The translations under genes and the position numbers were made by a program. A stretch of DNA of 64,000 nt from Bacilli bacterium (GTDB taxonomy: Bacteria > Bacillota_I > Bacilli_A > RFN20 > CAG-826): the NCBI GenBank assembly GCA_017447305.1, contig JAFSNY010000080.1:20884-84883 (forward strand), given 5' to 3'. Below, piece after piece: positions 12,528 to 58,035 of the stretch; the first letter of the stretch is position 1, and each line of letters begins with the position of its first letter. The notes under the pieces were generated by a model. The model was given only the letters and a program-made list of their open reading frames with translations, was not told where the DNA came from and searched no databases.

Positions 12528-12817
12528 TGTATTTCTTAACAGCTTTAGGCTGCACGATTATCGCTACCCTTTTATGGTTCTTCTTTAGAGATCGCAAGAA
12601 TCTCCATTTAGAGATTTTAGCTATCACTTATGGCGCTGCTACATTAATGTGGTTAGTGGACTGCATATTTTCCGCTGCTGGTGGAGAGGGATTCTTAAGT
12701 TTTGAATTCCCAACCGATGGTTGGATTTCCCTTTGGACTGTCTTAGGTGGAATCTTCATCTGGTTAATCCTAGCCTTTATTCTTAACAATAAAGAGAAAA
12801 CTGCGGTCACTGAATAA
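12527..12817 (+). CDS. Hypothetical 3-TM membrane protein (96 aa)
   Basis: Hydrophobic ORF overlapping the upstream stop (ATAATG). Confidence 0.45.
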   Translation: MYFLTALGCTIIATLLWFFFRDRKNLHLEILAITYGAATLMWLVDCIFSAAGGEGFLSFEFPTDGWISLWTVLGGIFIWLILAFILNNKEKTAVTE

Positions 12818-12914
12818 GATAAATTTATAACCGAAAAAATTGATGCATGAAAATGTATCGATTTTTTATTATCTAAATGAAAGTACAAAAAGAAAGTAAT
12901 AGAATATATGTGAT

Positions 12915-15566
12915 ATGAAAAAGCGTATTATCAATCATCGCCAAGAAGAAGCGCCTCGATATAATCCAACCATCGAAGAAGGACTCGATGAAGAAAAGGT
13001 ACTTGAAAGAGTTAGTAGTGGTTTAGTCAACAAAGCTAAAGACCCCACGAATAAGTCTTATCTTCAAATTGTCTTTGGAAATATTTTCACATTCTTTAAT
13101 ATCCTAATGTTTATCATCGCAGGAGTGCTTGTTTTAGTCGTTGGTAAAAAGGTTGTTACTAACTTATTATTCCTTGTCATCATTCTCTGTAATTTGCTAA
13201 TTGGAACAATTCAAGAATGTAAATCAAAACACACGATTGAAAAGTTAAAACTCTTAAATAACAACAAGAGCAAAGTAAAAAGAGGCGGGAAAGACATAGA
13301 AATTCTTCCAAATGAGATTGTTTTAGATGATGTCATTATCCTTTCTCCTGGAGATCAAATTCCTGTTGATGGAGTTATTCTTGATGATGAAATTGTCGAA
13401 GTCAATGAATCCCTTTTAACTGGTGAGTCAGTTCCTGTAAAGAAAACTAGAGGAGATATGTTATACGCTGGATCGTTTGTTGTTTCAGGAATTAACTATA
13501 TCCGCGCAGATAAGATTGGAAATGACACATATATTCAATCAATTCAAAGCAAAGCAAAATTATCTAAACAACCTAAATCGCATTTGATGATTGCGATTAG
13601 CAAGATTATCCGCGTTATGACACTTATCGCTATCCCATTAGCGTTTGTTGTTTTCTTAAACGAATTCTTACATAACATCTCTAATCCAATCTTAGACACT
13701 AAGACAAATGATATCGCTCCGATGTTCCCAACATATTGGGGACAAGATTCCCAAGTATCTGACGCAGTATTCTATGGTGGAGTCACTATCGCATACATGA
13801 TTCCTTACGGAATGGCTCTTTTAGCATCCGTAGCAATGGCCACGGGTGTTGTTAAATTAGCCCAAAGCAAAACACTTGCGCAAAACCTATATTCTGTCGA
13901 ATCATTATCAAGAGTCAATACTCTTTGTTTAGATAAAACGGGAACATTAACAGATGGAACAATGAGTGTTGAAAGTTACACGATTCTCGATGAGAAAGTT
14001 AAAGATGAAGAATTGTTAAAACTCATCAGTTCATATTTATCCGCTTTTAAAGCCTCTAACCAAACATCCATCGCTTTAACAAATAAGTTTGGTAATGAAA
14101 AAGCGTTTGATTTTGATAAGACTATCCAATTCTCAAGTGCGAGAAAGTATTCCGCGGTGAGATTTAAGGAACGTGGATGGTACGCTTTGGGCGCTCCAGA
14201 ATATCTAACCAAGGATAAGGATGTATTAGGGAAAATCGATGAATTTGCTAAACATGGATTAAGAGTAGTGCTTCTATCCAATATTGATGGAGAATTTGTC
14301 GATGAAGAGAAACTTCCTGAAAAGAGAAATAATGTTGCGATGTTTATCATTCGTGACACAATCCGTCCAGAAGTATACGACACGATGAGATGGTTCCATG
14401 AAAATGATGTCGATATTAAGGTCATCTCTGGCGACAACATTGGAACAGTTAGCTACATTGCTAAGCAATGCGGTATTGAAAACTGGGATAAGGTTATCGA
14501 TATGAGCACGATTACTGATAAAGATGATTTCGAAGAAATCGTCATGAATAATGCGATATTTGGACGTGTCAATCCAGATCAAAAAGCCGATATCATTCAA
14601 GTATTAAAGAAACACGGAAGAATCACTGGTGTCACTGGTGATGGATTAAATGATTTATTAGCCTTCAAACAAGCCGATTGTTCTATCGCTCTCGCTAATG
14701 GTGCGGCAGCGACTAAAAATGTTGCGAGCTTGATTCTTTTAGATAGCAACTTTGCTAATATGAAAGAAGCTGTCTTCCAAGGAAGAAGAGTGGTCAATAA
14801 CATTCAAAGATCATCATCATTATTTGTAATGAAAGACTTCCTCTGGTTATTCATTACCATCCTTCCAATTCTTCTTGGTCTCAACCATGTTATCCAGCCG
14901 ACAGTCATGTCGATTGTTAATATCTTCATTACCGGTATTGCTTCACTCTTTGTTGCCTTAGAGCCAGACAAGACAAGAGTGAAAGGTAACTTCTTCAAGA
15001 ACGTTGTAAGAACCGCGATAATCGCAGGATTTTATATGTTTGTCCCGATTCTTTTAATCATGACATATTTCCTAACTAGTCAGATTATCCAAACGCAGTC
15101 TTATGATTTAAGTCAGATGATGACACAGTTTAATAATGGAGAAATTACTAACCTTGGATGGGTACCTGTCATGAGTTTATGTGTAACCATAGCTGGATTT
15201 ATCATCTTCTTTGATAACTGCCGTCCATTCACTAAATTTAGAAAAATCTTATTTGGCTGTATCTTAGGACTTGTTTTACTTGTCCTATATCTCATTCCTG
15301 AATTCTTCATTGTCAGTGGAACAGAAATGCTTAAAGAAACAGTCGTGGACAGCAAATTAGGTTTACTTAATATCTTCAAATATGAAATAGATCACCTTGG
15401 ACCAAACGCTACTCTAATTCTTTATCGTACGATGTCCTTAGAACAGTGGCTATTCCTCGTAGGATGGCTTCTTGCTGCGTATCCGCTTTATCTATTTAAT
15501 AAGAAGTTCTTTGGAAAACTTATGGATGTGCTTTTATTCTCTCATAGAGAGTATAAGGATGATTAA
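12915..15566 (+). CDS. P-type cation-transporting ATPase (type II, Ca2+/Mg2+-like)
   Basis: Phosphorylation site LCLDKTGTLTDG, hinge TGDGLNDLLAFKQADCSIAL, plus the actuator domain and ~10 TM segments. Confidence 0.9.
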   Translation: MKKRIINHRQEEAPRYNPTIEEGLDEEKVLERVSSGLVNKAKDPTNKSYLQIVFGNIFTFFNILMFIIAGVLVLVVGKKVVTNLLFLVIILCNLLIGTIQECKSKHTIEKLKLLNNNKSKVKRGGKDIEILPNEIVLDDVIILSPGDQIPVDGVILDDEIVEVNESLLTGESVPVKKTRGDMLYAGSFVVSGINYIRADKIGNDTYIQSIQSKAKLSKQPKSHLMIAISKIIRVMTLIAIPLAFVVFLNEFLHNISNPILDTKTNDIAPMFPTYWGQDSQVSDAVFYGGVTIAYMIPYGMALLASVAMATGVVKLAQSKTLAQNLYSVESLSRVNTLCLDKTGTLTDGTMSVESYTILDEKVKDEELLKLISSYLSAFKASNQTSIALTNKFGNEKAFDFDKTIQFSSARKYSAVRFKERGWYALGAPEYLTKDKDVLGKIDEFAKHGLRVVLLSNIDGEFVDEEKLPEKRNNVAMFIIRDTIRPEVYDTMRWFHENDVDIKVISGDNIGTVSYIAKQCGIENWDKVIDMSTITDKDDFEEIVMNNAIFGRVNPDQKADIIQVLKKHGRITGVTGDGLNDLLAFKQADCSIALANGAAATKNVASLILLDSNFANMKEAVFQGRRVVNNIQRSSSLFVMKDFLWLFITILPILLGLNHVIQPTVMSIVNIFITGIASLFVALEPDKTRVKGNFFKNVVRTAIIAGFYMFVPILLIMTYFLTSQIIQTQSYDLSQMMTQFNNGEITNLGWVPVMSLCVTIAGFIIFFDNCRPFTKFRKILFGCILGLVLLVLYLIPEFFIVSGTEMLKETVVDSKLGLLNIFKYEIDHLGPNATLILYRTMSLEQWLFLVGWLLAAYPLYLFNKKFFGKLMDVLLFSHREYKDD

Positions 15567-47827: not shown

Positions 47828-47911
47828 TGCGATCGTGGCGGAATTGGTATACGCGCTAGCCTCAGAAACTAGTGACTTAGTCATGGAAGTTCAAATCTTC
47901 TCGGTCGCACC
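47828..47911 (+). tRNA. tRNA-Leu (anticodon CAG), type II with a long variable arm
   Basis: Acceptor GCGATCG/CGGTCGC; D-arm with GG; anticodon loop CTCAGAA; variable hairpin TGACTTAGTCA; T-arm GGAAG-TTCAAAT-CTTCT; 3' ACCA. There is one C·A mismatch closing the anticodon stem. Confidence 0.75.
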
Positions 47912-48064
47912 AAAAAGGTAGAATTGGTTCAACATAAAAGTGTCGAACCTTTTTTGTATTATGAACTAACATAAATATTTTTAAAAACTCGGATGCAAAA
48001 AAACTAAGAAATATTTTACATTTGCCCCCAAATGTACTAAAATACATTTAGGAGATTTATTGAT

Positions 48065-48451
48065 ATGTTCAATCAGCAAGAATACATTAATGGTTTTATC
48101 AAAGATAAATATAAGACATTAAAAATACGAATTAGAAAAGATAATAAATTGCTTATTTATAAACTTTCTAGTGTTGACAACATCAATAGATATGTTGTTT
48201 CTTTGATATTGGATGATATCTACAAGAATCGTTCATATAAATTTATTAATAACGAAATAAAAATAGATTTCGAATTGTCGAAAACAATGAAAAATCTCGT
48301 TGAAGAAGCTGAAATCGCTGATATCTTGGAAGATTACGGCTTATATATGAATCTTGCAGACGCTATTGATTCTCAAGGAAAAAAAGAAGTTGCGCATCAT
48401 TTATTGAGAGAAAGTCAATGGAAAAAACTAACTAAGAGGTATTGCTTATGA
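48065..48451 (+). CDS. Small hypothetical protein (128 aa), a candidate partner/antitoxin (HipS-like?) of the downstream HipA-like kinase
   Basis: Its stop overlaps the kinase start by 10 nt (ATGATAAAGATGA). It has no HTH. Confidence 0.5.
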   Translation: MFNQQEYINGFIKDKYKTLKIRIRKDNKLLIYKLSSVDNINRYVVSLILDDIYKNRSYKFINNEIKIDFELSKTMKNLVEEAEIADILEDYGLYMNLADAIDSQGKKEVAHHLLRESQWKKLTKRYCL

Positions 48452-49392
48452 TAAAGATGATAGATTTTTCTAATTGCAAATTGAGTTCGAGAAACCTTGA
48501 ATATGGTGGAAGAGCTGGAGAAAAGAAGGGTATTTTTTATAATAACGAGTTTTGGTTTTTAAAATTTCCAAAGAGTACCTCTGGAATGAATGATATCAAA
48601 GGATTGTCCTATGCAACATCTCCTTTAAGTGAATATATAGGCAGTCATATATATCAAATTCTTGGATATGATGTCCACAAAACTCTTTTGGGTATTTGTT
48701 TTGATGGGAAAAGATACAAGGTTGTTTGCGCTTGTAAAGATTTTATTAAAGATGACAAAACCGAATTGCTAATCCCATACACCGCTTTAAGAAATGACAC
48801 AAACCCAGAGGTAATGGGCCGAGATGAAGAATCATCATTGTCTGCATCAAATATTAATGAGATTATTTTTCAACTCGACCACAACACGGTTTTGAAAAAT
48901 ATAAAAAATGCGAAAGAAAGATTTTGGGATGTTGTTCTCATTGATATGCTCATTAATAACAATGATAGAAACGAAGATAATTGGGGAGTTATCAAAGATA
49001 AAACTAACAGCACATATCGTCTATCACCAATTTATGATTGCGGCAATTGCTTTTATGGAAAGACTAGCGAAGAAAGAATTTTAGAAATACTCTCTGATGA
49101 AGCTAGATTGTTAAGCAGTGCCTTAAATGGAATAACAGCTTACGAGGACGATGAAGAAAAAAGAATTAGAAATGAAGATATCGTTAAATTGAATAATGGA
49201 GAACTCCGCAATTCTATTTATAGAGTTTATACTCTATTTTCAAACAAAATGGGCGAAATCACAAATTTTATTAACGAAATACCAGAATCTTATCAAAATG
49301 TTGTTGTGATGAGCAGTCAAAGGAAAAAATACTATATTAAAACAATTATGATTAGGTTGGAAAAGATATTGTTTCCATGCGTTACAAAATAA
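48442..49392 (+). CDS. Short HipA-homologous Ser/Thr kinase (HipT/CtkA-like, lacking the HipA N-terminal subdomain)
   Basis: The Gly-rich loop YGGRAGEKKG resembles HipA VAGAQEKT. The catalytic/Mg motif DMLINNNDRNEDNWGVIKDKTNSTYRLSPIYDCG resembles HipA ...DGHAKNFS...LTPFYD. It is 316 aa, against ~440 for HipA. Confidence 0.65.
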   Translation: MLMIKMIDFSNCKLSSRNLEYGGRAGEKKGIFYNNEFWFLKFPKSTSGMNDIKGLSYATSPLSEYIGSHIYQILGYDVHKTLLGICFDGKRYKVVCACKDFIKDDKTELLIPYTALRNDTNPEVMGRDEESSLSASNINEIIFQLDHNTVLKNIKNAKERFWDVVLIDMLINNNDRNEDNWGVIKDKTNSTYRLSPIYDCGNCFYGKTSEERILEILSDEARLLSSALNGITAYEDDEEKRIRNEDIVKLNNGELRNSIYRVYTLFSNKMGEITNFINEIPESYQNVVVMSSQRKKYYIKTIMIRLEKILFPCVTK

Positions 49393-51400: not shown

Positions 51401-51478
51401 GCGCCTGTAGCTCAGTTGGATTAGAGCATAACCCCCCGAAGGTTAGAGTCACACGTTCAAGTCGTGCCAGGCGCTCCA
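51401..51478 (+). tRNA. tRNA-Arg (anticodon CCG), with atypical C33
   Basis: Acceptor GCGCCTG/CAGGCGC; D-arm GCTC-AGTTGGATTA-GAGC; anticodon stem TAACC/GGTTA with loop CCCCGAA; T-loop TTCAAGT; 3' TCCA. Confidence 0.6.
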
Positions 51479-51529: not shown

Positions 51530-53026
51530 ATGAGCAGACAAGAATTTAAAGATTTAGTATTCTATGAGATTTACCCAACTTCTTTTTATGACTCTAATAA
51601 TGATGGAATTGGAGACTTAAAAGGAATCGAATTAAAACTAGATTATGTTAAAGAATTAGGATGTAACGCAATTTGGTTAAATCCATTCTTTAAATCCCCA
51701 TTTTTCGATGGCGGATATGACGTTGAAGATTTCTTTGATGTCGATCCTCGATTTGGCAATATCGAAGATTTTAAATCCCTCATTAAAACCGCTCATGAAA
51801 AAGGAATCAAAATCATCCTTGATTTAGTCGCAGGACATGCCTCAATAAAAAATAAAGAATTCCAAAAAAGTACAGAGCCAAAAAGAAATGAATATTCTGA
51901 TTTATTTGTCTGGAATGATTCGGTATGGGAATGGAACCCAAATTTCCGTTTAATGGCGGGTATCTATCAAAGAAGTGGTGCGTTCCTCGTTAATTTCTTC
52001 GCACATCAACCAGCATTTAATTACGGATTTAATATCATTGATCGCCCATGGCAAATGTCTTATGAAGATCCAAGAACATATCAAGCAAGAGAATACATGC
52101 TTAAAGTCATGAGACATTGGCTAGGGTTAGGCGCGGATGGCTTTAGAGTCGATATGGCGGACTCCCTTGTCAAAAACGATAACGAAAAAGATGCAACCAT
52201 CAAAGTATGGAAATGTATGTTCTCAATTATCAGAAAAGAATATCCAAATGCATATTTCGTTTCCGAATGGTCCAACCCTTCCAGAGCGTTAGAAGCTGGT
52301 TTTGACGCTGACTTTGTCTTAGACCACTGGGATAACTTCTATCATCACATGGTCAGAAGTAATGAAAACACGAGAGGCAAATCACTCTTGAATGGTAGCG
52401 ATGATTTCGAATATGTCATTAAAGATATGAAATATCGCTTTGAAGAAGCAAATAAGCATGATGCTTATATCGCTCTTATCAGTGGTAATCATGACACTCC
52501 TAGAATTGCAGATTCATTAGATTTAAATAGACTGAAAATGTTCTATCTCTATCAATTAAGTATGCCAGGCACTCCATTCATTTATTATGGTGATGAATTA
52601 ATGATGAAAACAATGCCTCTAGATTCTAAAGATGGCGGTTATCAAAGAACTGGTGTTCGTATCCCGATGGTGTGGAATAACCAAGATAAATATCATGGAT
52701 TCTCGAACACTAAAGGAGAAACATATTTACCATTTTACGATGTAAATAAAGTTTCAGTGGAAGACGCGATTAAAGACGAGGAATCTCTGTATAATTTCAT
52801 CAAGCGTTTAATCGCTCTTAGAAAAGAAAATAGCGGACTACGTACATCAAATTTAGCGATAAAAGAAGATAAAAAGGTCATTGAAATCACTCGTGGAGAT
52901 AATCTCAAAGTTGTCCTCAATTTATCAAATAATGACTATAAGGTTGAAGGTAACATTTTAATTGCGTCCCAAGATGTTAAAGACAATCTTCTCCCTTCAT
53001 TCTCAGGTGCGATTATTAAGCAATAA
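51530..53026 (+). CDS. GH13 alpha-glucosidase (oligo-1,6-glucosidase / alpha-phosphotrehalase-like)
   Basis: VFYEIYPTSFYDSNNDGIGDLKGI, LGCNAIWLNPFFKSP, GYDVEDFFDVDPRFG, GFRVDMAD, EW and GNHD are the conserved GH13 regions I-IV. The start at MSRQEF follows an aaagaggga RBS; the listed ORF start lies inside the tRNA. Confidence 0.85.
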   Translation: MSRQEFKDLVFYEIYPTSFYDSNNDGIGDLKGIELKLDYVKELGCNAIWLNPFFKSPFFDGGYDVEDFFDVDPRFGNIEDFKSLIKTAHEKGIKIILDLVAGHASIKNKEFQKSTEPKRNEYSDLFVWNDSVWEWNPNFRLMAGIYQRSGAFLVNFFAHQPAFNYGFNIIDRPWQMSYEDPRTYQAREYMLKVMRHWLGLGADGFRVDMADSLVKNDNEKDATIKVWKCMFSIIRKEYPNAYFVSEWSNPSRALEAGFDADFVLDHWDNFYHHMVRSNENTRGKSLLNGSDDFEYVIKDMKYRFEEANKHDAYIALISGNHDTPRIADSLDLNRLKMFYLYQLSMPGTPFIYYGDELMMKTMPLDSKDGGYQRTGVRIPMVWNNQDKYHGFSNTKGETYLPFYDVNKVSVEDAIKDEESLYNFIKRLIALRKENSGLRTSNLAIKEDKKVIEITRGDNLKVVLNLSNNDYKVEGNILIASQDVKDNLLPSFSGAIIKQ

Positions 53027-53072
53027 TAAATCTTTTATTTTCACGGATAAATCATTATAATTAACTCGCTAC

Positions 53073-53160
53073 GCTCGAGTGGCGAAACTAGGTAGACGCA
53101 GTAGACTCAAAATCTACCGATAGTGATATCATACCGGTTCGATTCCGGTCTCGAGCACCA
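53073..53160 (+). tRNA. tRNA-Leu (anticodon CAA), type II
   Basis: Perfect acceptor GCTCGAG/CTCGAGC; anticodon stem GTAGA/TCTAC with loop CTCAAAA; 15-nt variable arm; T-arm ACCGG-TTCGATT-CCGGT; 3' ACCA. Confidence 0.85.
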
Positions 53161-53678
53161 AATTAAATAGTACCCCTTTTTCTGGATGAAACACTTCAGA
53201 GAGAGGGATTTTTTGTTCGCAAAAAATCATTAATAAACGTGGCTGCAAAATAAAATATCTGGGTGTCAATACGTAGTATTGAGTTAGCACTCGCACGCGT
53301 AGAGTGCTTGCAAGAAGAAGAAGATATACTCCTATTATGTGAATTTCGGAAATCCATGTAATGGATAGTCGTTGATGGTCAAGACGACTTAGACATGGAA
53401 TGAGATTTCCGAGGTTACTGTAAGGAAAGTTACGTTTAGAAAATGAATGCATGATTTTCTATCAATATGATTCTCCTTACGTCAGTGAATTAGCATTTGT
53501 CCAATTGGTGGACACAAAAAATCGCTAATAAGCTGACAAACAACATACTAATTGAGTAGTCCGTGTGTGATGAAATGGGATTCACAAAAAACACGAGATG
53601 AAAGATTAGCTTACTTCATGTTGTTCATATACCGCACAGTTAACGTTACTGGCGGATAAAGGAAAGGAGATTTTTTAT

Positions 53679-56366
53679 ATGAACAAATTATTAACAAAGA
53701 TTGTCGGTGTGACATTGGGTCTCACTATGGCAATCGGTGTGGGTGTTGCTGTTGGAAACAGAACCAATACAAGAATAGCAAAGGCCGATACGTATACTGG
53801 TACGGTAAACATGGGGTCTGGATATTGGAACCCAAGAGATAAATGGTCTACGCCTTCTTCGCCAGCAGTGGATACGTTCACTGATAATTTGGGAAACACT
53901 TGGACGTGTACTTATAGTTTTAGCACTTATGGTGGAAGCGCGAATGCGTCATTTATTCAATTTGGTACAAGCTCAAACCCTGCAAGTAGTGTAGTCTTTA
54001 CAACCACACTCTCAAGTTCACAAACCATCAGTGCCTTTTCAACCAAAGTTGGTGGGTATTCTGGTACTGCAGGTACAATCAATTTGAAGGTTGGGTCAAC
54101 CGTTGTTGGAACTGGATCATTTAATACAACCAGTGATGTAACCGTCAATGCCTCAAATACTACTGAGACAGGAACTGTGCTGACCGTTCAACTTCTTCCA
54201 TCAGCAAAAGGAATTAAAGTATATAATTTTTCTTATACTTATAGTACTGGTGCTGCAGATAGTATCACAGAAAAAGCTGCTTCTTTTGACGTTTACAATG
54301 GTGAAACATTAACATTAAGTACCTGCGTAACAACAACTGGAAGTGGTGCGCTTTCTTTTAGCGCCAATACTACTTCTTATGGCACAATCACTGCCGGAGT
54401 CTTTACTGCATCTGCTGTTGGAGGACCAACAACTATTACTGCAACAAAAGGCTCGGCGTCAACCACTTTTACAATTTGTGTTTTAGATTTACCAACATAT
54501 TCTAAGGTTACATCTACAGCTAACTTAACTCCTGGGTCTGAATTGATCCTTATTTATGATGGAACAAACGGAACGCTCGCAGCTAATGCTAAGAGTGGTA
54601 CTTTCTTGACCACAACATCTGTAACGATTTCTACCAATACAATCAAAACACGTTCTGCGTTAGTTTTTACTTTAGGCGGAACAAGCGGTGCTTGGACATT
54701 AAAAAATGGAGATGATTACTATGGTGTTTCATCAGCTAGTTCCAACAAATTAGCTACAAAAGCCACAGAACCAATTGCCTCTGATACTGGTTATTTATGG
54801 ACCATCTCGTTTAGTTCTAACAAGCTTGTTATGGCAACGAAATTAGGTGGCGGAAACCTTCAATTTAATTATAATGGTGGAACTAACCCTCGAATCACAA
54901 ACTATACCAGTGTGCAAGAAGATTCACTATATATGTTTGCAATTTTGGCTCCACAAGTCACCCCATCAGTTTCATCAGCTACAATTTACACACCAAATGC
55001 ACCAACTGCCGTTGAAGTAACCTTATCCTATAAGAATATTACTCCAGGAAGTGGAACCGCTGTGACTTCAAGTGATGTTTCGGTTATTCCTGTTGCAAAT
55101 TGCGTTTTCACAAATGAATATCAAACATTAACCATTAGTCAAAATAGTGTAACTGGTTCATCAACAATTACAGTTAACGCTACTGATGGTAGTCAAAATT
55201 GTAGTTGCACAATTGCAATTACGGTTGCTAACAATGCTGCAACATTATCAAGCATTAGTATCACAACCGCTCCAACCAACACAACTTTCTATGTTGGCAA
55301 TAAATTAGATTTAAGTGGAATGGTTGTTAAAGCATCTTGGAGTAGTGGAGATCCAACTGACGTCACTGAAGATTGTGTTATTTATCTTGGCGATGGAACT
55401 GGATCCGCTTATGACGATGAAGCATTAGTAGCTGAGAACGATCTTGTAACAATTAAGTACACATTTAGCGGAACTACAAAATCAACAACTCAAGCAATTT
55501 CTGTTGTTGCGTTCCCATACTCAGTCGCTTCTTCAATTAATGGTGGCGATAAAGTAATAATTGCTGCTGGAACAAGATATTTACAATCCATTGGTGATAT
55601 TAATAAAAAAACCGTTGGAATAGCAGCTGATTTCGGCAATGGTATCTACCCATCAACCGATAATACATACACCATTGTCGCTGGGAGTTCCGACGGAACA
55701 GTCGCATTCAAGCAAGGAGCTAATTATTTAAGCTTCTCGGGTAGCGACAACCAATTATTAACTTCTACCACATTGAATGCTGAATCATCATGGACTGTTA
55801 GCATCACAACAAATATTGCAACTATCACAAACGTTGCCTCTGATACGAGAATAATTAAATATGCCAATGGTGATAGATTTGCTGCATATGATAACGCTAC
55901 CGCAACAACAGTTCAATTATGGAAATTGAATGGTGCTTCTGGACAATCTGCAGCAGAAGATTTTGCTGACGATTTCAAAGAATACATCGTCGACAATATT
56001 TGTGCTGTCAATGATGCATCATTTGATACAGACATGGCTGAATTCTGGGAATTAGAAGCAGAAACATATGCAAGTTTAAGCAGTGAAGCAAAAGCTTACA
56101 TCGCTTCTAAATCAGCTAACGCATCTGGCGACAAAGTCGAAAAGATGCTTGCTGAATACAACCACATTTATGGTGTATATGGAACATCGCTCAGTTTGAG
56201 CAACTTCTTATCCAGAGTTGAAGCAGTTAAAGCCTCTAACTCCATCGGACCTGCTATTAATGCTTCCCAAGGTTCATCCACAACTACTTTAGTTATTATT
56301 CTTTCTATCGTCGGTTTCATTACCGTCGGTGGTTACTTCTTAATTAGAAGACGTAAAGAAAACTAA
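53679..56366 (+). CDS. Large Thr/Ser/Gly-rich surface protein (895 aa) with a signal peptide, Ig-like beta-repeat regions and a C-terminal TM anchor (no LPXTG)
   Basis: Signal peptide MNKLLTKIVGVTLGLTMAIGVGVAVG. Repeated T/S/G-rich blocks. The C-terminus is LVIILSIVGFITVGGYFLIRRRKEN. An RBS (aggaga) precedes it. Confidence 0.7.
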   Translation: MNKLLTKIVGVTLGLTMAIGVGVAVGNRTNTRIAKADTYTGTVNMGSGYWNPRDKWSTPSSPAVDTFTDNLGNTWTCTYSFSTYGGSANASFIQFGTSSNPASSVVFTTTLSSSQTISAFSTKVGGYSGTAGTINLKVGSTVVGTGSFNTTSDVTVNASNTTETGTVLTVQLLPSAKGIKVYNFSYTYSTGAADSITEKAASFDVYNGETLTLSTCVTTTGSGALSFSANTTSYGTITAGVFTASAVGGPTTITATKGSASTTFTICVLDLPTYSKVTSTANLTPGSELILIYDGTNGTLAANAKSGTFLTTTSVTISTNTIKTRSALVFTLGGTSGAWTLKNGDDYYGVSSASSNKLATKATEPIASDTGYLWTISFSSNKLVMATKLGGGNLQFNYNGGTNPRITNYTSVQEDSLYMFAILAPQVTPSVSSATIYTPNAPTAVEVTLSYKNITPGSGTAVTSSDVSVIPVANCVFTNEYQTLTISQNSVTGSSTITVNATDGSQNCSCTIAITVANNAATLSSISITTAPTNTTFYVGNKLDLSGMVVKASWSSGDPTDVTEDCVIYLGDGTGSAYDDEALVAENDLVTIKYTFSGTTKSTTQAISVVAFPYSVASSINGGDKVIIAAGTRYLQSIGDINKKTVGIAADFGNGIYPSTDNTYTIVAGSSDGTVAFKQGANYLSFSGSDNQLLTSTTLNAESSWTVSITTNIATITNVASDTRIIKYANGDRFAAYDNATATTVQLWKLNGASGQSAAEDFADDFKEYIVDNICAVNDASFDTDMAEFWELEAETYASLSSEAKAYIASKSANASGDKVEKMLAEYNHIYGVYGTSLSLSNFLSRVEAVKASNSIGPAINASQGSSTTTLVIILSIVGFITVGGYFLIRRRKEN

Positions 56367-56383
56367 TAAACATTTATAGGATT

Positions 56384-56420
56384 AACCCAGATAGGAATTG
56401 ACCACCCTCTGGGTTCTTCC
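56384..56420 (+). terminator. Hairpin (terminator-like) after the surface-protein gene
   Basis: aacccaga-(16 nt)-tctgggtt; the T-run is weak (ttcttcctttat). Confidence 0.4.
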
Positions 56421-56811
56421 TTTATGGGTTCTCGATTAGAACCTATAAGGGAGGAGAATCATCCTCTACACACTATAGCTACATATGCATCCACTCTAGG
56501 AGTGATTAGTTATTGTGTGTTGGACTTTCCGTTGAGAGGCTTCCTTCTTTAAGGACTTTATGTCCAGCCAGTATACGGATTGAGATCTCAAAAGGATCAT
56601 TTAATGAATAAGACCTACTCCATTCATTAATTCCATGGCTATCTTGTTATCTAATTTCTCAACTTTCTGCGATAAAAGAAGATAGTTTGAAAAGTCACAT
56701 TCCATTGACAGTACTGACCATACCTAGGAATGTGGCTTTTTATATCTATAATCAGTTAGTTTTCTATTCAACTAACTTTATATTTAATCAATAAAAAGTT
56801 ATCATATATCC

Positions 56812-57959: not shown

Positions 57960-58035
57960 GGGTCCATAGCTCATCTGGAAGAGCGCATCGTTCGCAACGA
58001 TGAGGTGGCGAGTTCGAGCCTCGTTGGATCCACCA
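57960..58035 (+). tRNA. tRNA-Ala (anticodon CGC)
   Basis: Acceptor GGGTCCA/TGGATCC with the G3·U70 alanine identity pair; D-arm GCTC-ATCTGGAA-GAGC; anticodon stem CATCG/CGATG with loop TTCGCAA; T-loop TTCGAGC; 3' ACCA. Confidence 0.85.

What the first reader, a model, noticed from the sequence alone, without database searches (positions are those of the whole stretch)
53161..53678. 518-bp non-coding region rich in nested hairpins between tRNA-Leu(CAA) and the surface-protein gene
No credible ORF is present; the listed minus-strand ORF 53129-53452 overlaps the tRNA and lacks support. The region contains several strong dyads. One is gcactc-gcacgcgta-gagtgc at 53287-53307. Another is a ~65-nt compound stem-loop at 53346-53410, cggaaatccatg...catgg-aatga-gatttccg, that encloses an inner gtcgt...acgac hairpin. 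A third is an AT-rich near-palindrome around 53440-53460. This is a candidate sRNA, a long structured 5' leader, or a regulatory element controlling the adhesin-like gene.
Basis: seen in the sequence. Interest (0 to 1): 0.5.

Follow-up and report, generated by a model that had tools for sequence, protein, structure and literature searches.

The report
Three-layer control region of surface-protein gene
The "hairpin-rich spacer" is the conserved control region of a variable surface-protein gene in an uncultured ruminant-gut bacterium: a heat-shock-type operator fused to a promoter whose spacing is set by a trinucleotide repeat, followed by a ~340-nt structured mRNA leader found in no RNA database.

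Summary
All three dyads exist, no ORF is credible, and the 460 nt fold far better than shuffles (z -5.5).

The pieces are of different kinds. After the tRNA-Leu terminator come three DNA-level features:
- An AT-rich palindrome at 53266-53282.
- A CIRCE-type inverted repeat at 53284-53310. It reads TTAGCACTC-N9-GAGTGCTTG, 16 of 18 matches to the HrcA operator consensus. Its right arm supplies the -35 box.
- An (AAG)4 repeat that fills the promoter spacer.

Homologous modules lie upstream of related surface-protein genes in other metagenomes. There the design is CIRCE, then TTGCTT or TTGATT, then (CTT)6-8, then TATAAT. Spacers are 17 nt or 20 nt depending on repeat number. A same-species allele carries (AAG)6, which gives TTGCAA-17-TATACT. 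The window's (AAG)4 allele gives 11 or 19 nt.

Downstream, 53338-53678 is a conserved 5' UTR. Two hairpins with (near-)invariant loops show compensatory changes. A conserved UUGUUCAUA pairs with the start codon, and a UCUCC motif can pair with the Shine-Dalgarno sequence. Rfam has no match.

Best reading: an HrcA-repressible, phase-variable promoter plus a translation-occluding leader. It is not an sRNA. I rate it a new variant of known kinds, of moderate interest.

The parts
53073..53160 (+). tRNA-Leu(CAA). Context: the upstream boundary of the region.
   Evidence: ARAGORN and Rfam tRNA at 54.7 bits.
53174..53217 (+). Intrinsic terminator that ends the tRNA transcript: a 13-bp stem followed by ATTTTTTGTT.
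   Evidence: The same element is found in the same-species allele L011.
53207..53228 (.). A/T inverted repeat GATTTTTTG-TTCG-CAAAAAATC, which contains the conserved box GCRAAAAATCA. Its role is unknown.
   Evidence: Read from the sequence. A self-match is seen. A related box follows a terminator-like T-run in L005, L007, L022 and L030.
53266..53282 (.). Perfect AT-rich palindrome TCAATAC-GTA-GTATTGA, ending 1 nt before the CIRCE-like repeat. Its role is unknown; it may be a second operator.
   Evidence: All 9 homologous promoters have a perfect 7-10 bp palindrome with a 3-nt loop at exactly this position, in 5 different sequences. Shuffles reach the observed stem length in 2 to 67 of 2000 trials.
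53284..53310 (.). CIRCE-type inverted repeat TTAGCACTC-GCACGCGTA-GAGTGCTTG, a putative HrcA operator that overlaps the -35 box.
   Evidence: - It is the only match in 64 kb at up to 3 mismatches. It has 2 mismatches, and 0.01 matches are expected by chance.
- The consensus is taken from PMC3842655.
- The arms are conserved and the N9 spacer is free in homologues.
- The same pattern retrieves genuine chaperonin CIRCE elements, including one upstream of a Cpn60 gene in L010.
53308..53313 (+). -35 box TTGCAA. Its TTG is the end of the CIRCE right arm.
   Evidence: Scored as the first hexamer of a promoter-like site in the (AAG)6 allele L011. The homologous TTGATT-17-TATAAT in L007 scores 10/12.
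53312..53323 (.). (AAG)4 trinucleotide repeat that fills the promoter spacer.
   Evidence: - Window: (AAG)4.
- Same-species allele L011: (AAG)6.
- Homologues: (CTT)6, (CTT)7 or (CTT)8.

Several contigs end or start in or next to the tract.
53325..53338 (+). Two candidate -10 boxes: TATACT (53325-53330) and TATTAT (53333-53338).
   Evidence: - With (AAG)4 the spacers are 11 nt and 19 nt. No plus-strand promoter-like site is scored inside the intergenic region; the only plus-strand sites lie at 53000-53027, upstream of the tRNA, and inside the coding sequence.
- With (AAG)6 the spacer to TATACT is 17 nt and the site is scored.
53338..53678 (+). Conserved structured 5' UTR (leader) of the surface-protein mRNA, about 340 nt.
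   Evidence: - An nhmmer profile finds one copy per locus in 16 loci, with E from 1e-98 to 1e-27, plus L031 and L033.
- Covariance model R1 matches 53338-53485 at 93 bits.
- Rfam gives no match.
53347..53411 (+). P1 compound stem-loop. The outer helix is CGGAAATC/GATTTCCG. The apical hairpin is 53368-53388, and its loop holds the near-invariant UGGUCA(A) at 53376-53382.
   Evidence: - Apical hairpin: 96.9% of cells paired, and 6 of 7 pairs show changes on both sides.
- Every homologue folded on its own gives the same architecture, with different outer-helix sequences.
53437..53461 (+). P2 hairpin TAGAAAAT-GAATGCATG-ATTTTCTA. The loop carries a 6-nt palindrome: AUGCAU here, GUGCAC in the full-length homologues.
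   Evidence: 90.2% of cells paired, and 3 pairs show changes on both sides.
53471..53479 (+). Anti-SD-like motif UUCUCCUUA, complementary to AAGGAGA of the ribosome-binding site.
   Evidence: - The UCUC core is invariant in alignment A1, and A2 shows only two invariant columns in this motif.
- In 5 of 12 homologues the MFE pairs this motif with the SD.
- In the window's MFE it pairs instead with the upstream SD-like GUAAGGA at 53420-53426.
53481..53537 (+). P3 nested helices: GUCAG/CUGAC, UUAGC/GCUAA and UGUCCA/UGGACA.
   Evidence: RNAalifold pairs 170-183 with 213-225, several with compensatory changes. This is also the best-conserved block against L005.
53621..53631 (+). Anti-AUG motif UUGUUCAUAUA.
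   Evidence: - It is perfectly complementary to 53676-53686 over 11 bp, -10.4 kcal/mol.
- The motif TTRTTCATA is conserved in all 15 leaders, including the distant L032 paralogues.
- The 9 core pairs are kept in 13 to 15 of 15 sequences, with one clean GC/AU covariation, 8 against 7.
- The helix has mean pair probability 0.83 in the window.
53632..53655 (+). P5 hairpin CCGCACAGT-TAACGTT-ACTGGCGG, immediately upstream of the SD.
   Evidence: Present in the MFE. Hairpins with different sequences sit at the same place in homologues (sequences; pairings worked out by hand).
53664..53686 (+). Translation initiation region: SD AAGGAGA (53664-53670), AUG at 53679, and the segment UAUAUGAACAA (53676-53686) that pairs with the anti-AUG motif.
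   Evidence: In the window the AUG has an unpaired probability of 0.04 and the SD 0.88.
53679..56366 (+). The regulated gene: an 895-aa surface protein with an N-terminal signal peptide (MNKLLTKIVGVTLGLTMAIGVGVAV...AKA) and a C-terminal membrane anchor (...VGGYFLIRRRKEN).
   Evidence: Translation. There is no Pfam hit. The homologue family shares both termini.

Best explanation
The region is the complete cis-regulatory module of a variable surface-protein gene. It works at three levels.

**1. Repressor control.** A sigma-70-type promoter has its -35 box (TTGCAA) built into the right arm of a CIRCE-type inverted repeat. HrcA, the heat-shock repressor that recognises TTAGCACTC-N9-GAGTGCTAA, would therefore block RNA polymerase in unstressed cells. 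This step is inferred.

**2. Phase variation.** The -35/-10 spacer is a trinucleotide repeat, (AAG)n here and (CTT)n in relatives.
- Slipped-strand mispairing would change the spacing in 3-nt steps and switch the promoter between a functional 17-nt spacing and non-functional spacings.
- The polymorphism and the geometry are shown. The switching itself is inferred.
- The window carries (AAG)4, which gives 11 nt to TATACT or 19 nt to TATTAT, so it is probably a low or OFF allele.
- A same-species metagenomic allele with (AAG)6 gives the 17-nt ON geometry.

**3. Leader RNA.** Transcription would start at about 53338 and produce a ~340-nt conserved 5' UTR.
- Its 5'-terminal compound hairpin P1 probably stabilises the mRNA. 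This is inferred.
- Two conserved single-stranded motifs can close the translation start. UUGUUCAUAUA pairs with the AUG region, and UCUCCUU can pair with the Shine-Dalgarno sequence.
- Translation would then be low by default and need melting, by heat or by a factor. This is inferred from predicted folds.
For: **CIRCE-type repeat.**
- It is the single match in the window, with 2 mismatches and 0.01 expected by chance. The consensus is from PMC3842655.
- A metagenome scan with its pattern returned true chaperonin operators. One lies 125 nt upstream of a Cpn60 gene and has the same -35 overlap.
- The arms are nearly invariant (one mismatch, in L030) and the N9 spacer varies in the homologues found independently through protein homology: L005, L007 and L030, plus the right arm of L028.

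**Promoter.**
- TTGATT-17-TATAAT scores 10/12 in L007, and TTGCAA-17-TATACT is scored in L011.
- Read by eye from the sequences, a promoter-like hexamer pair lies just upstream of P1 also in relatives that lack CIRCE and the repeat: L024, L027 and L006.

**Repeat.**
- Counts are 4 against 6 AAG units between same-species alleles, and 6, 7 or 8 CTT units among relatives, giving 17-nt or 20-nt spacers.
- A (CT)9 spacer occurs in a distant paralogue.
- Contigs break at the tract.
- Spacer-repeat phase variation is an established mechanism (PMC3899988). GAA repeats control the vlhA surface genes of a mollicute (PMC6258824).

**Leader.**
- It is conserved in 18 loci.
- Of the 21 modelled pairs, 82.7% of cells are paired, against 64.7% in shuffles (0 of 500 as high) and 40-54% in slid controls. 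Fourteen pairs change on both sides.
- The AUG-sequestering helix is conserved in 14 of 15 leaders, with one mismatch in the fifteenth.
- In predicted MFE structures the AUG is paired to the anti-AUG motif in 6 of 12 homologues and the SD to UCUCYCC in 5 of 12.
- No terminator lies inside the leader.
Against: **HrcA link.**
- No hrcA gene and no chaperone CIRCE could be examined in this organism. Only 64 kb is held, and its only CIRCE-like site is this one.
- Five of the ten CIRCE-bearing homologues were retrieved with a pattern that required the arms, so they do not count as evidence of conservation.

**Promoter and repeat.**
- The -35 boxes are weak. TTGCTT matches the consensus in only 3 of 6 positions.
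- Only one true same-locus comparison of repeat number exists (window against L011). Three other assemblies all carry (AAG)4.
- Four units is a short tract for frequent slippage.
- Contig breaks may be assembler artefacts.

**Leader.**
- The AUG helix rests mostly on invariant columns. Shuffles reach the observed pairing in 20 of 500 trials.
- Duplexes of 10 bp or more between a start region and its upstream 110 nt occur in 7 of 49 genes of this AT-rich window when G-U pairs are allowed.
- The outer P1 helix aligned poorly in the covariance-model alignment, at 64% paired.

**No expression data.** No transcript data of any kind are available.
Confidence: 0.6

Rival explanations
1. The leader is only a passive mRNA-stabilising or high-expression 5' UTR, as described for S-layer genes of Gram-positive bacteria. 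The CIRCE-like repeat and the trinucleotide tract would then be evolutionary leftovers with no regulatory role.
For: - A stable hairpin sits a few nucleotides from the inferred 5' end in every homologue.
- The gene encodes a large surface protein.
- Relatives L024, L027 and L006 keep the leader without CIRCE or a long repeat.
- My own knowledge, not checked here: S-layer mRNAs carry long stabilising leaders.
Against: - The CIRCE arms are nearly invariant (one mismatch, in L030) while the 9-nt spacer and the flanks vary. That points to selection on the arms.
- The repeat sits exactly between the -35 and -10 boxes, and most alleles give exactly 17 nt.
- The conserved single-stranded motifs complementary to the AUG and the SD are not needed for stabilisation.
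Confidence: 0.15
2. The leader is a ligand- or protein-binding riboregulator of a new class, riboswitch-like. The (near-)invariant loops UGGUCA(A) and GUGCAC would be the sensor, and the anti-SD and anti-AUG segments the expression platform.
For: - The loop sequences are invariant or nearly so, on top of covarying stems.
- Each TIR-complementary motif has an alternative partner in the predictions. The anti-SD motif pairs with the upstream SD-like GUAAGGA or with the SD, and the anti-AUG motif pairs with upstream ACAACAU or with the AUG.
- There is no Rfam match.
Against: - The conserved nucleotides lie in hairpin loops, not in a multi-helix junction as is typical of riboswitch aptamers.
- The middle of the leader (P3 and P4) is mosaic and variable among homologues.
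- No metabolic gene is associated with it.
- Only about 8 independent lineages are available.
Confidence: 0.12
3. The conservation is kept at the DNA level. The conserved 5' module (leader plus signal-peptide codons) and the conserved 3' flank would serve as homology arms or recombination sites for exchanging variable surface-protein cassettes, as in mycoplasma vsp, vpma and vsa loci.
For: - Very different ectodomains share near-identical leaders, signal peptides and C-terminal anchors.
- The 3' flank is also conserved.
- The L023 leader is mosaic: its 5' part resembles L016 and its middle resembles the window and L005.
- Two contigs stop at exactly 53283.
- The module lies next to tRNA genes in two loci and is absent from the syntenic site of a relative.
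Against: - Recombination arms do not explain compensatory base-pair changes in P1, P2 and P3.
- They do not explain the complementarity to the AUG.
- No recombinase gene was seen next to the locus in the window. Only selected ORFs were annotated.
- This reading is compatible with the best explanation as an additional role, not as a replacement for it.
Confidence: 0.08
4. An independent small RNA gene lies between the tRNA and the surface-protein gene.
For: The region has strong structure and no ORF.
Against: - No terminator-like site lies between 53218 and 53678, nor in the L007 leader.
- The conserved structure extends into the SD and AUG.
- The distance from the P1 loop to the AUG is conserved at 296-322 nt in all homologues.
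- The element always accompanies a gene of this family.
Confidence: 0.05

Closest known systems
CIRCE/HrcA operators of groESL and dnaK operons (class I heat-shock regulation in Bacillota and many other bacteria)
   Same: - It is an inverted repeat TTAGCACTC-N9-GAGTGCT.., with exact 9-nt spacing and 16 of 18 consensus positions (PMC3842655).
- It lies inside the promoter.
- The same overlap with the -35 box is seen at a metagenomic Cpn60 gene.
   Different: - The downstream gene is a surface protein, not a chaperone.
- The last two bases of the right arm are TG instead of AA.
- It is combined with a repeat-filled spacer.
- HrcA binding is untested.
Phase-variable promoters with a simple-sequence repeat between the -35 and -10 boxes (H. 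influenzae hifA/hifB TA repeats, N. meningitidis porA poly-G, M. hyorhinis vlp)
   Same: - The repeat tract occupies the spacer, so unit gain or loss changes the -35/-10 distance (PMC3899988).
- The gene encodes a surface protein.
- Alleles with different unit numbers exist.
   Different: - The unit is a trinucleotide, so each step is 3 nt.
- The host is an uncultured gut commensal lineage, not a classical pathogen.
- Switching has not been observed directly.
Mycoplasma gallisepticum vlhA (pMGA) GAA-repeat control
   Same: - The repeat motif is the same, (GAA)n, which equals (AAG)n and (CTT)n.
- It lies in the 5' non-coding region of a multigene family of variable surface proteins in a low-GC, Bacilli-related organism.
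- The unit number varies among orthologues (PMC6258824).
   Different: - In vlhA the tract lies about 40 nt upstream of the transcription start, and exactly 12 units are needed. Here it lies between the -35 and -10 boxes with 4 to 8 units.
- No protein homology to VlhA was found.
- vlhA has no CIRCE and no long conserved leader reported.
N. meningitidis nadA: a repeat tract combined with the NadR repressor
   Same: It combines a stochastic repeat-length switch with a deterministic repressor that binds next to the tract (PMC2791445, abstract).
   Different: - The repeat (TAAA) and its position differ: the nadA tract is upstream of the core promoter.
- The repressor family differs.
- nadA has no structured leader.
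Translation-occluding 5' UTRs and RNA thermometers (for example Listeria prfA, ROSE, fourU), cited from my own knowledge
   Same: A leader segment base-pairs with the SD or the AUG. The AUG duplex is A/U-rich (11 bp with 2 G-C pairs) and could melt with temperature. This fits the heat-shock logic of CIRCE.
   Different: - No sequence or structure match to ROSE, fourU or any other Rfam family.
- The leader is much longer, about 340 nt with at least 5 helices.
- It has two separate occluding motifs.
- Temperature dependence is untested.

Membership tests
CIRCE / HrcA operator | Inverted repeat TTAGCACTC-N9-GAGTGCTAA | tested here: met
   53284-53310 matches with 2 mismatches, both in the last two positions. 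It is the only match in 64 kb, with 0.01 expected by chance. The consensus is from PMC3842655.
CIRCE / HrcA operator | Located in the promoter or 5' region of the regulated operon | tested here: met
   Its right arm supplies the TTG of the -35 box. The same arrangement is seen at a Cpn60 gene in L010.
CIRCE / HrcA operator | Regulated genes are class I chaperones (groESL, dnaK operon) | tested here: not met
   The downstream gene is an 895-aa surface protein with no chaperone domain.
CIRCE / HrcA operator | The genome encodes HrcA, and HrcA binds the site | not testable with these tools
   No other CIRCE-like site occurs in the window, and the ORFs I annotated are not HrcA. The rest of the MAG could not be fetched.
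SSR-mediated phase-variable promoter | Simple-sequence repeat inside or next to the core promoter, so that unit number sets the promoter geometry | tested here: met
   (AAG)4 at 53312-53323 lies between TTGCAA and TATACT or TATTAT. In relatives (CTT)6-8 lies between TTGCTT or TTGATT and TATAAT.
SSR-mediated phase-variable promoter | Unit number differs between otherwise near-identical alleles | tested here: inconclusive
   - There is one same-locus pair: the window with 4 units against L011 with 6, at about 93% flank identity.
- Three other assemblies all carry 4 units.
- Related genes carry 6, 7 or 8 units.
- Contigs break at the tract.
- Read-level heterogeneity could not be examined.
SSR-mediated phase-variable promoter | Expression switches ON and OFF with unit number | not testable with these tools
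   Only geometry is available. A promoter-like site is scored for the 6-unit allele and not for the 4-unit allele.
M. gallisepticum vlhA GAA system | GAA tract about 40 nt upstream of the transcription start, 12 units needed for ON, VlhA lipoprotein family | tested here: not met
   The tract lies in the spacer and has 4 to 8 units. The protein has no lipobox and no Pfam hit. The comparison data are from PMC6258824.
Any described RNA family (Rfam 15, including riboswitches, T-box, ROSE and fourU thermometers, ROOL, GOLLD, OLE) | Covariance-model match | tested here: not met
   - No match at gathering score in the window.
- At E<=10 in 52900-53900, nothing inside the region beyond three far-sub-threshold chance hits to eukaryotic snoRNA and lncRNA models.
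- No match at E<=1 in five homologous loci.
Conserved structured cis-regulatory 5' UTR (generic) | Conserved in relatives, at a fixed position relative to the gene, with compensatory base-pair changes | tested here: met
   - One copy per locus, always upstream of a family member.
- The distance from the P1 loop to the AUG is 296-322 nt.
- Fourteen of 21 modelled pairs change on both sides, and 0 of 500 shuffles reach the observed covariation score.

The most novel reading that the evidence does not exclude
The ~340-nt leader is a new class of cis-regulatory RNA that locks translation twice. An anti-SD motif and an anti-AUG motif would pair with the initiation region in a pseudoknot-like arrangement. 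The lock would open in response to heat or to a specific factor that recognises the conserved UGGUCA(A) and GUGCAC loops.

Together with the HrcA/CIRCE operator and the repeat-length switch, this would give uncultured, probably mollicute-like, gut Bacilli a three-layer programme for their variable surface proteins: stochastic, stress-responsive and post-transcriptional. That would extend CIRCE control beyond chaperones to host-interface proteins.
Probability: 0.25. Interest if true: 0.75.

Novelty: new variant of a known kind. Interest (0 to 1): 0.55.

Why it matters
If this is right, three things follow.
- Phase variation of surface proteins through promoter-spacer repeats is best known from pathogens. 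Here it would also be used by uncultured commensal Bacilli of the ruminant gut.
- The heat-shock repressor HrcA would have been recruited to control a host-interface protein.
- A conserved, undescribed structured leader would join the catalogue of bacterial cis-regulatory RNAs.

The module is compact and precisely delimited. Each layer can therefore be tested with reporter fusions and read-level analysis of existing metagenomes.

Tried and rejected
**Searches that found nothing.**
- Rfam at gathering score on the whole window, at E<=10 on the region, and at E<=1 on five homologous loci: only tRNAs and noise.
- Blastn of the region against the window: it is not repeated.
- Scans of viral contigs with two motifs: no hits, or chance hits only.

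**Coding potential.**
- Small ORFs of 20-35 aa exist, but none was called in the homologous leaders.
- The minus-strand ORF 53129-53452 has no Pfam hit and overlaps the tRNA.

**Synteny.**
- The search for related loci on genome contigs with the neighbouring amylase gave one relative, L004. It lacks tRNA-Leu, the region and the gene.
- Synteny was therefore useless, and homologues had to be reached through the surface protein itself.

**Computations that failed or were weak.**
- The first two sliding-window z-score scripts timed out.
- MAFFT alignments misplace the window's outer P1 helix and its 3' half, so the outer helix scores poorly.
- I looked for pairing between the UGGUCAA loop and the P2 region, and for an inversion relating (AAG)n to (CTT)n. 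Neither was convincing.
- I considered an upstream promoter (the TTGACA box in L005-type loci) that would transcribe CIRCE into the RNA. No acceptable -10 box follows it.

**Limits reached.**
- HrcA presence in the MAG could not be checked.
- The last look-up of encoding contigs gave no new repeat alleles. It gave only two contigs that stop at 53283.
Full report
**1. Check of the observation**

- An intrinsic terminator for the tRNA lies at 53174-53217.
- The remaining ~460 nt fold to -131.6 kcal/mol against -99.9 +/- 5.7 for dinucleotide shuffles. That is z -5.5, with 0 of 100 shuffles as good. The z-score is the same on the other strand.
- Random 460-nt windows of the same genome mostly give z between +0.6 and -3.7.
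- Two other long intergenic regions are also highly structured: 56367-56811 and 12528-12914.
- The minus-strand ORF 53129-53452 overlaps the tRNA and has no Pfam hit. No gene was called in the equivalent regions of homologous loci.
- Rfam finds only tRNAs.
- The region is single-copy in the window.

**2. Source organism and relatives**

The ORF product is identical to a protein of a ruminant-gut MAG labelled 'Bacilli bacterium'. Other assemblies of the same species are identical across the region.

The nearest genome found through the neighbouring amylase gene is L004, at 74% identity. It lacks tRNA-Leu, the region and the gene.

Homologues came from two routes.
- The first route was protein homology to the surface protein: loci L005, L006, L007, L024-L033.
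- The second route was one metagenome scan with the dyad pattern.

All these genes encode large proteins that share the N-terminal signal peptide MNKL(L/F)TKI...G(V/I)GVA and a C-terminal membrane anchor ...IGGYFF(L/I)(K/R)(K/R)R(K/Q)E(N/Q). Their ectodomains are very different. Each is preceded by 400-750 nt of non-coding DNA that is homologous to the window's region.

**3. The first dyad is a CIRCE-type operator**

Positions 53284-53310 read TTAGCACTC-GCACGCGTA-GAGTGCTTG. This matches the HrcA operator consensus TTAGCACTC-N9-GAGTGCTAA (PMC3842655) at 16 of 18 positions with exact spacing.
- It is the only such site in 64 kb, with 0.01 expected by chance.
- The metagenome scan with AGTTAGCACTC-N9-GAGTGCTTG returned two kinds of hit:
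  - elements in unrelated organisms, several with a second canonical CIRCE close by, including one 125 nt upstream of a Cpn60 gene (L010);
  - further copies of the surface-protein module (L011, L015, L016, L022, L023).
- In the homologues found independently of that pattern (L005, L007, L030, and the right arm of L028) the arms are nearly invariant (one mismatch, in L030) while the nine central bases differ freely. That is the signature of a protein-recognised operator, not of an RNA hairpin.
- Immediately 5' of CIRCE, with a 1-nt gap in all nine promoters, lies a perfect 7-10 bp AT-rich palindrome with a 3-nt loop. Its sequence differs among lineages. Its role is unknown.

**4. The promoter and its repeat**

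In the relatives the right CIRCE arm runs into TTGCTT or TTGATT, then a (CTT)n tract, then TATAAT (TAAAAT in L022, TAGAAT in L030).
- The scan tool scores TTGATT-17-TATAAT at 10/12 in L007.
- The spacer is 17 nt in L005, L007, L016, L022 and L030. It is 20 nt in L023 and L028, which carry one more CTT unit.

The window's lineage has TTGCAA, then (AAG)n, then ATATACT.
- The window and three other assemblies carry four units. That puts TATACT at 11 nt and TATTAT at 19 nt, and no promoter-like site is scored on the plus strand inside the intergenic region.
- The same-species allele L011 carries six units, and TTGCAA-17-TATACT is scored.

Other observations bear on this.
- A more distant cousin, L032, has TTGATT-(CT)9-TATGAT in front of one of three paralogous genes.
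- Several contigs end or begin in or beside the tract: L015, L028, L029, L031 and L003. L035 and L036 stop at 53283. This is what within-sample length heterogeneity would produce, but it could also be an assembler artefact.
- Relatives without CIRCE or a long repeat (L024, L027, L006) still have, by my reading of the sequences, a promoter-like hexamer pair just upstream of the first leader hairpin. This supports the promoter assignment.

Repeat tracts in the -35/-10 spacer are an established mechanism of phase variation (PMC3899988). GAA repeats control the vlhA surface-protein genes of Mycoplasma gallisepticum, though from a position upstream of the promoter (PMC6258824).

**5. The rest is a conserved structured 5' UTR**

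An nhmmer profile finds exactly one copy per locus, always directly upstream of a family member. The distance from the first hairpin loop to the AUG is 296-322 nt in all of them.

Evidence for individual helices:
- RNAalifold predicts helices with compensatory changes.
- I built covariance model R1 for the 5' domain. It matches 14 loci at 78-142 bits.
- On the resulting alignment, which is fitted to the model, 82.7% of cells are paired, against 64.7% in shuffles (0 of 500 as high) and 40-54% when partners are slid. Fourteen of 21 pairs change on both sides.
- The apical hairpin of P1 (53368-53388) is 96.9% paired, with 6 of 7 pairs compensatory. It presents a near-invariant UGGUCA(A) loop.
It presents a palindromic hexamer: AUGCAU here, GUGCAC in the full-length homologues.
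- The outer helix of P1 aligned poorly (64% paired). It is nonetheless present, with different sequences, when each homologue is folded alone.
- P3 (53481-53537) is supported.
- No terminator lies inside the leader, and no Rfam family matches it in six loci.

**6. Occlusion of the translation start**

The conserved motif TTRTTCATA (window 53621-53631, UUGUUCAUAUA) is complementary to the start-codon region (53676-53686, UAUAUGAACAA).
- The duplex is 11 perfect pairs here.
- It is 8-12 pairs in 14 of 15 leaders, including the distant L032 paralogues. The fifteenth has one mismatch.
- On alignment A6 the nine core pairs are kept in 13 to 15 of 15 sequences.
- The G/A difference in the motif matches the AAC/AAT difference in the second codon without exception: GC in 8 sequences, AU in 7.

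The statistics are weak, because most columns are invariant. Shuffles reach the observed pairing in 20 of 500 trials. Duplexes of 10 bp or more, with G-U pairs allowed, also occur upstream of 7 of 49 genes in this AT-rich window. The argument therefore rests on conservation of position across lineages, not on duplex length.

A second conserved motif, UCUC(U)CC (window 53471-53479), is complementary to the SD AAGGAGA.
- In predicted MFE structures of leader plus 30 nt of coding sequence, the AUG is paired to the first motif in 6 of 12 homologues. In the window the helix has pair probability 0.83 and the AUG has unpaired probability 0.04.
- The SD is paired to the second motif in 5 of 12.
- The two interactions cross, so they could coexist only as a pseudoknot.
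- Both predict a default-closed initiation region. What opens it is unknown.
- The A/U-rich AUG duplex and the CIRCE operator make heat a natural candidate. This is inference.

**7. Verdict**

The region is not an sRNA gene. It is a composite control module for a variable surface-protein gene, made of:
- a putative HrcA operator;
- a promoter whose spacer is a polymorphic trinucleotide repeat, with the window probably carrying a low or OFF allele;
- a new, conserved, structured leader that can sequester the start codon and the SD.

Each layer has precedents. The combination, the use of CIRCE in front of a non-chaperone surface gene, and the leader RNA itself are not described in the sources I could search. 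I rate it a new variant of known kinds, of moderate interest.

The main gaps are the absence of any expression data, of the organism's hrcA, and of read-level repeat counts.

Noticed in passing
window 56367-56811: The intergenic region 3' of the surface-protein gene is also strongly structured (-127 against -92 kcal/mol, z about -5.3). Stretches within its first ~130 nt (query positions 19-128, including a long hairpin CCTTTATGGGTTC...GAACCTATAAGG) are conserved 3' of homologous genes in L006, L030 and L007. The gene therefore has conserved 5' and 3' flanks around a variable body.
   Followed up: partly
window 12528-12914: A 387-nt intergenic region upstream of a P-type ATPase gene (12915-15566) folds much better than shuffles (z about -4.7). 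It has no Rfam match and no similarity to any fetched locus. It may be another uncharacterised leader.
   Followed up: no
window 53266-53282 and the same position in L005, L007, L011, L015, L016, L022, L023, L030: A perfect AT-rich palindrome with a 3-nt loop ends exactly 1 nt before CIRCE in all nine promoters. It occurs in five different sequences, so the symmetry is kept while the sequence changes. L006, which lacks CIRCE, has a similar palindrome about 23 nt (roughly one CIRCE length) upstream of its -35 box.
   Followed up: partly
L035 and L036 (both end at window 53283); L003 (starts at window 53316); L028, L029, L031 (start in the CTT tract); L015 (ends in it): Metagenomic contigs repeatedly break at the CIRCE and repeat junction. 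Two assemblies stop at the identical base just before CIRCE. This could reflect length heterogeneity, an alternative junction or an assembler artefact.
   Followed up: partly
L032 1212-1607: L032 comes from a higher-GC cousin organism. One of three paralogous MNKK... surface-protein genes there has a promoter TTGATT-(CT)9-TATGAT. The other two have the same boxes with a non-repetitive 17-nt spacer. All three leaders keep the TTGTTCATA (or TTGTTCCTA) motif.
   Followed up: partly
L005 1-450, L007 118-780, L030 324-701, L032 4144-4722: Small genes lie next to the control module in four loci, and three of them (L007, L030, L032) carry faint or weak NUMOD1 / I-HmuI-like DNA-binding domain hits. 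No such gene was noticed next to the window's copy.
   Followed up: no
window 47829-47912, 51401-51478, 53073-53160, 57960-58035; L004 1265-1658: - Four singleton tRNA genes are scattered over 10 kb. All have C at the wobble position: Leu-CAG, Arg-CCG, Leu-CAA and Ala-CGC.
- The relative L004 has a tmRNA gene where the window has tRNA-Arg, and it lacks tRNA-Leu and the surface gene.
- The module in L015 also follows a tRNA.
- Together these suggest tRNA-linked insertion of the cassette.
   Followed up: no
window 53679-54250 (N-terminal ~150-190 aa of the protein): The N-terminal domain (...GNTWT...SF...QFG(S/T)SS.PA.S..FTTTL...KGIK.Y..SYTY) is shared with many proteins that end in a ...GLYIVNGKK(V/I)(V/I)IK tail. 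By my own recognition, not tested, that tail is typical of Bacteroidota type IX secretion substrates. This hints at inter-phylum sharing of a surface domain in gut bacteria.
   Followed up: no
window 48065-49392: A weak, sub-threshold HipA_C match (26.3 bits, below the 30.5 cut-off) at 48442-49392 is preceded by an overlapping 128-aa ORF with no Pfam hit. This may be a toxin-antitoxin pair.
   Followed up: no
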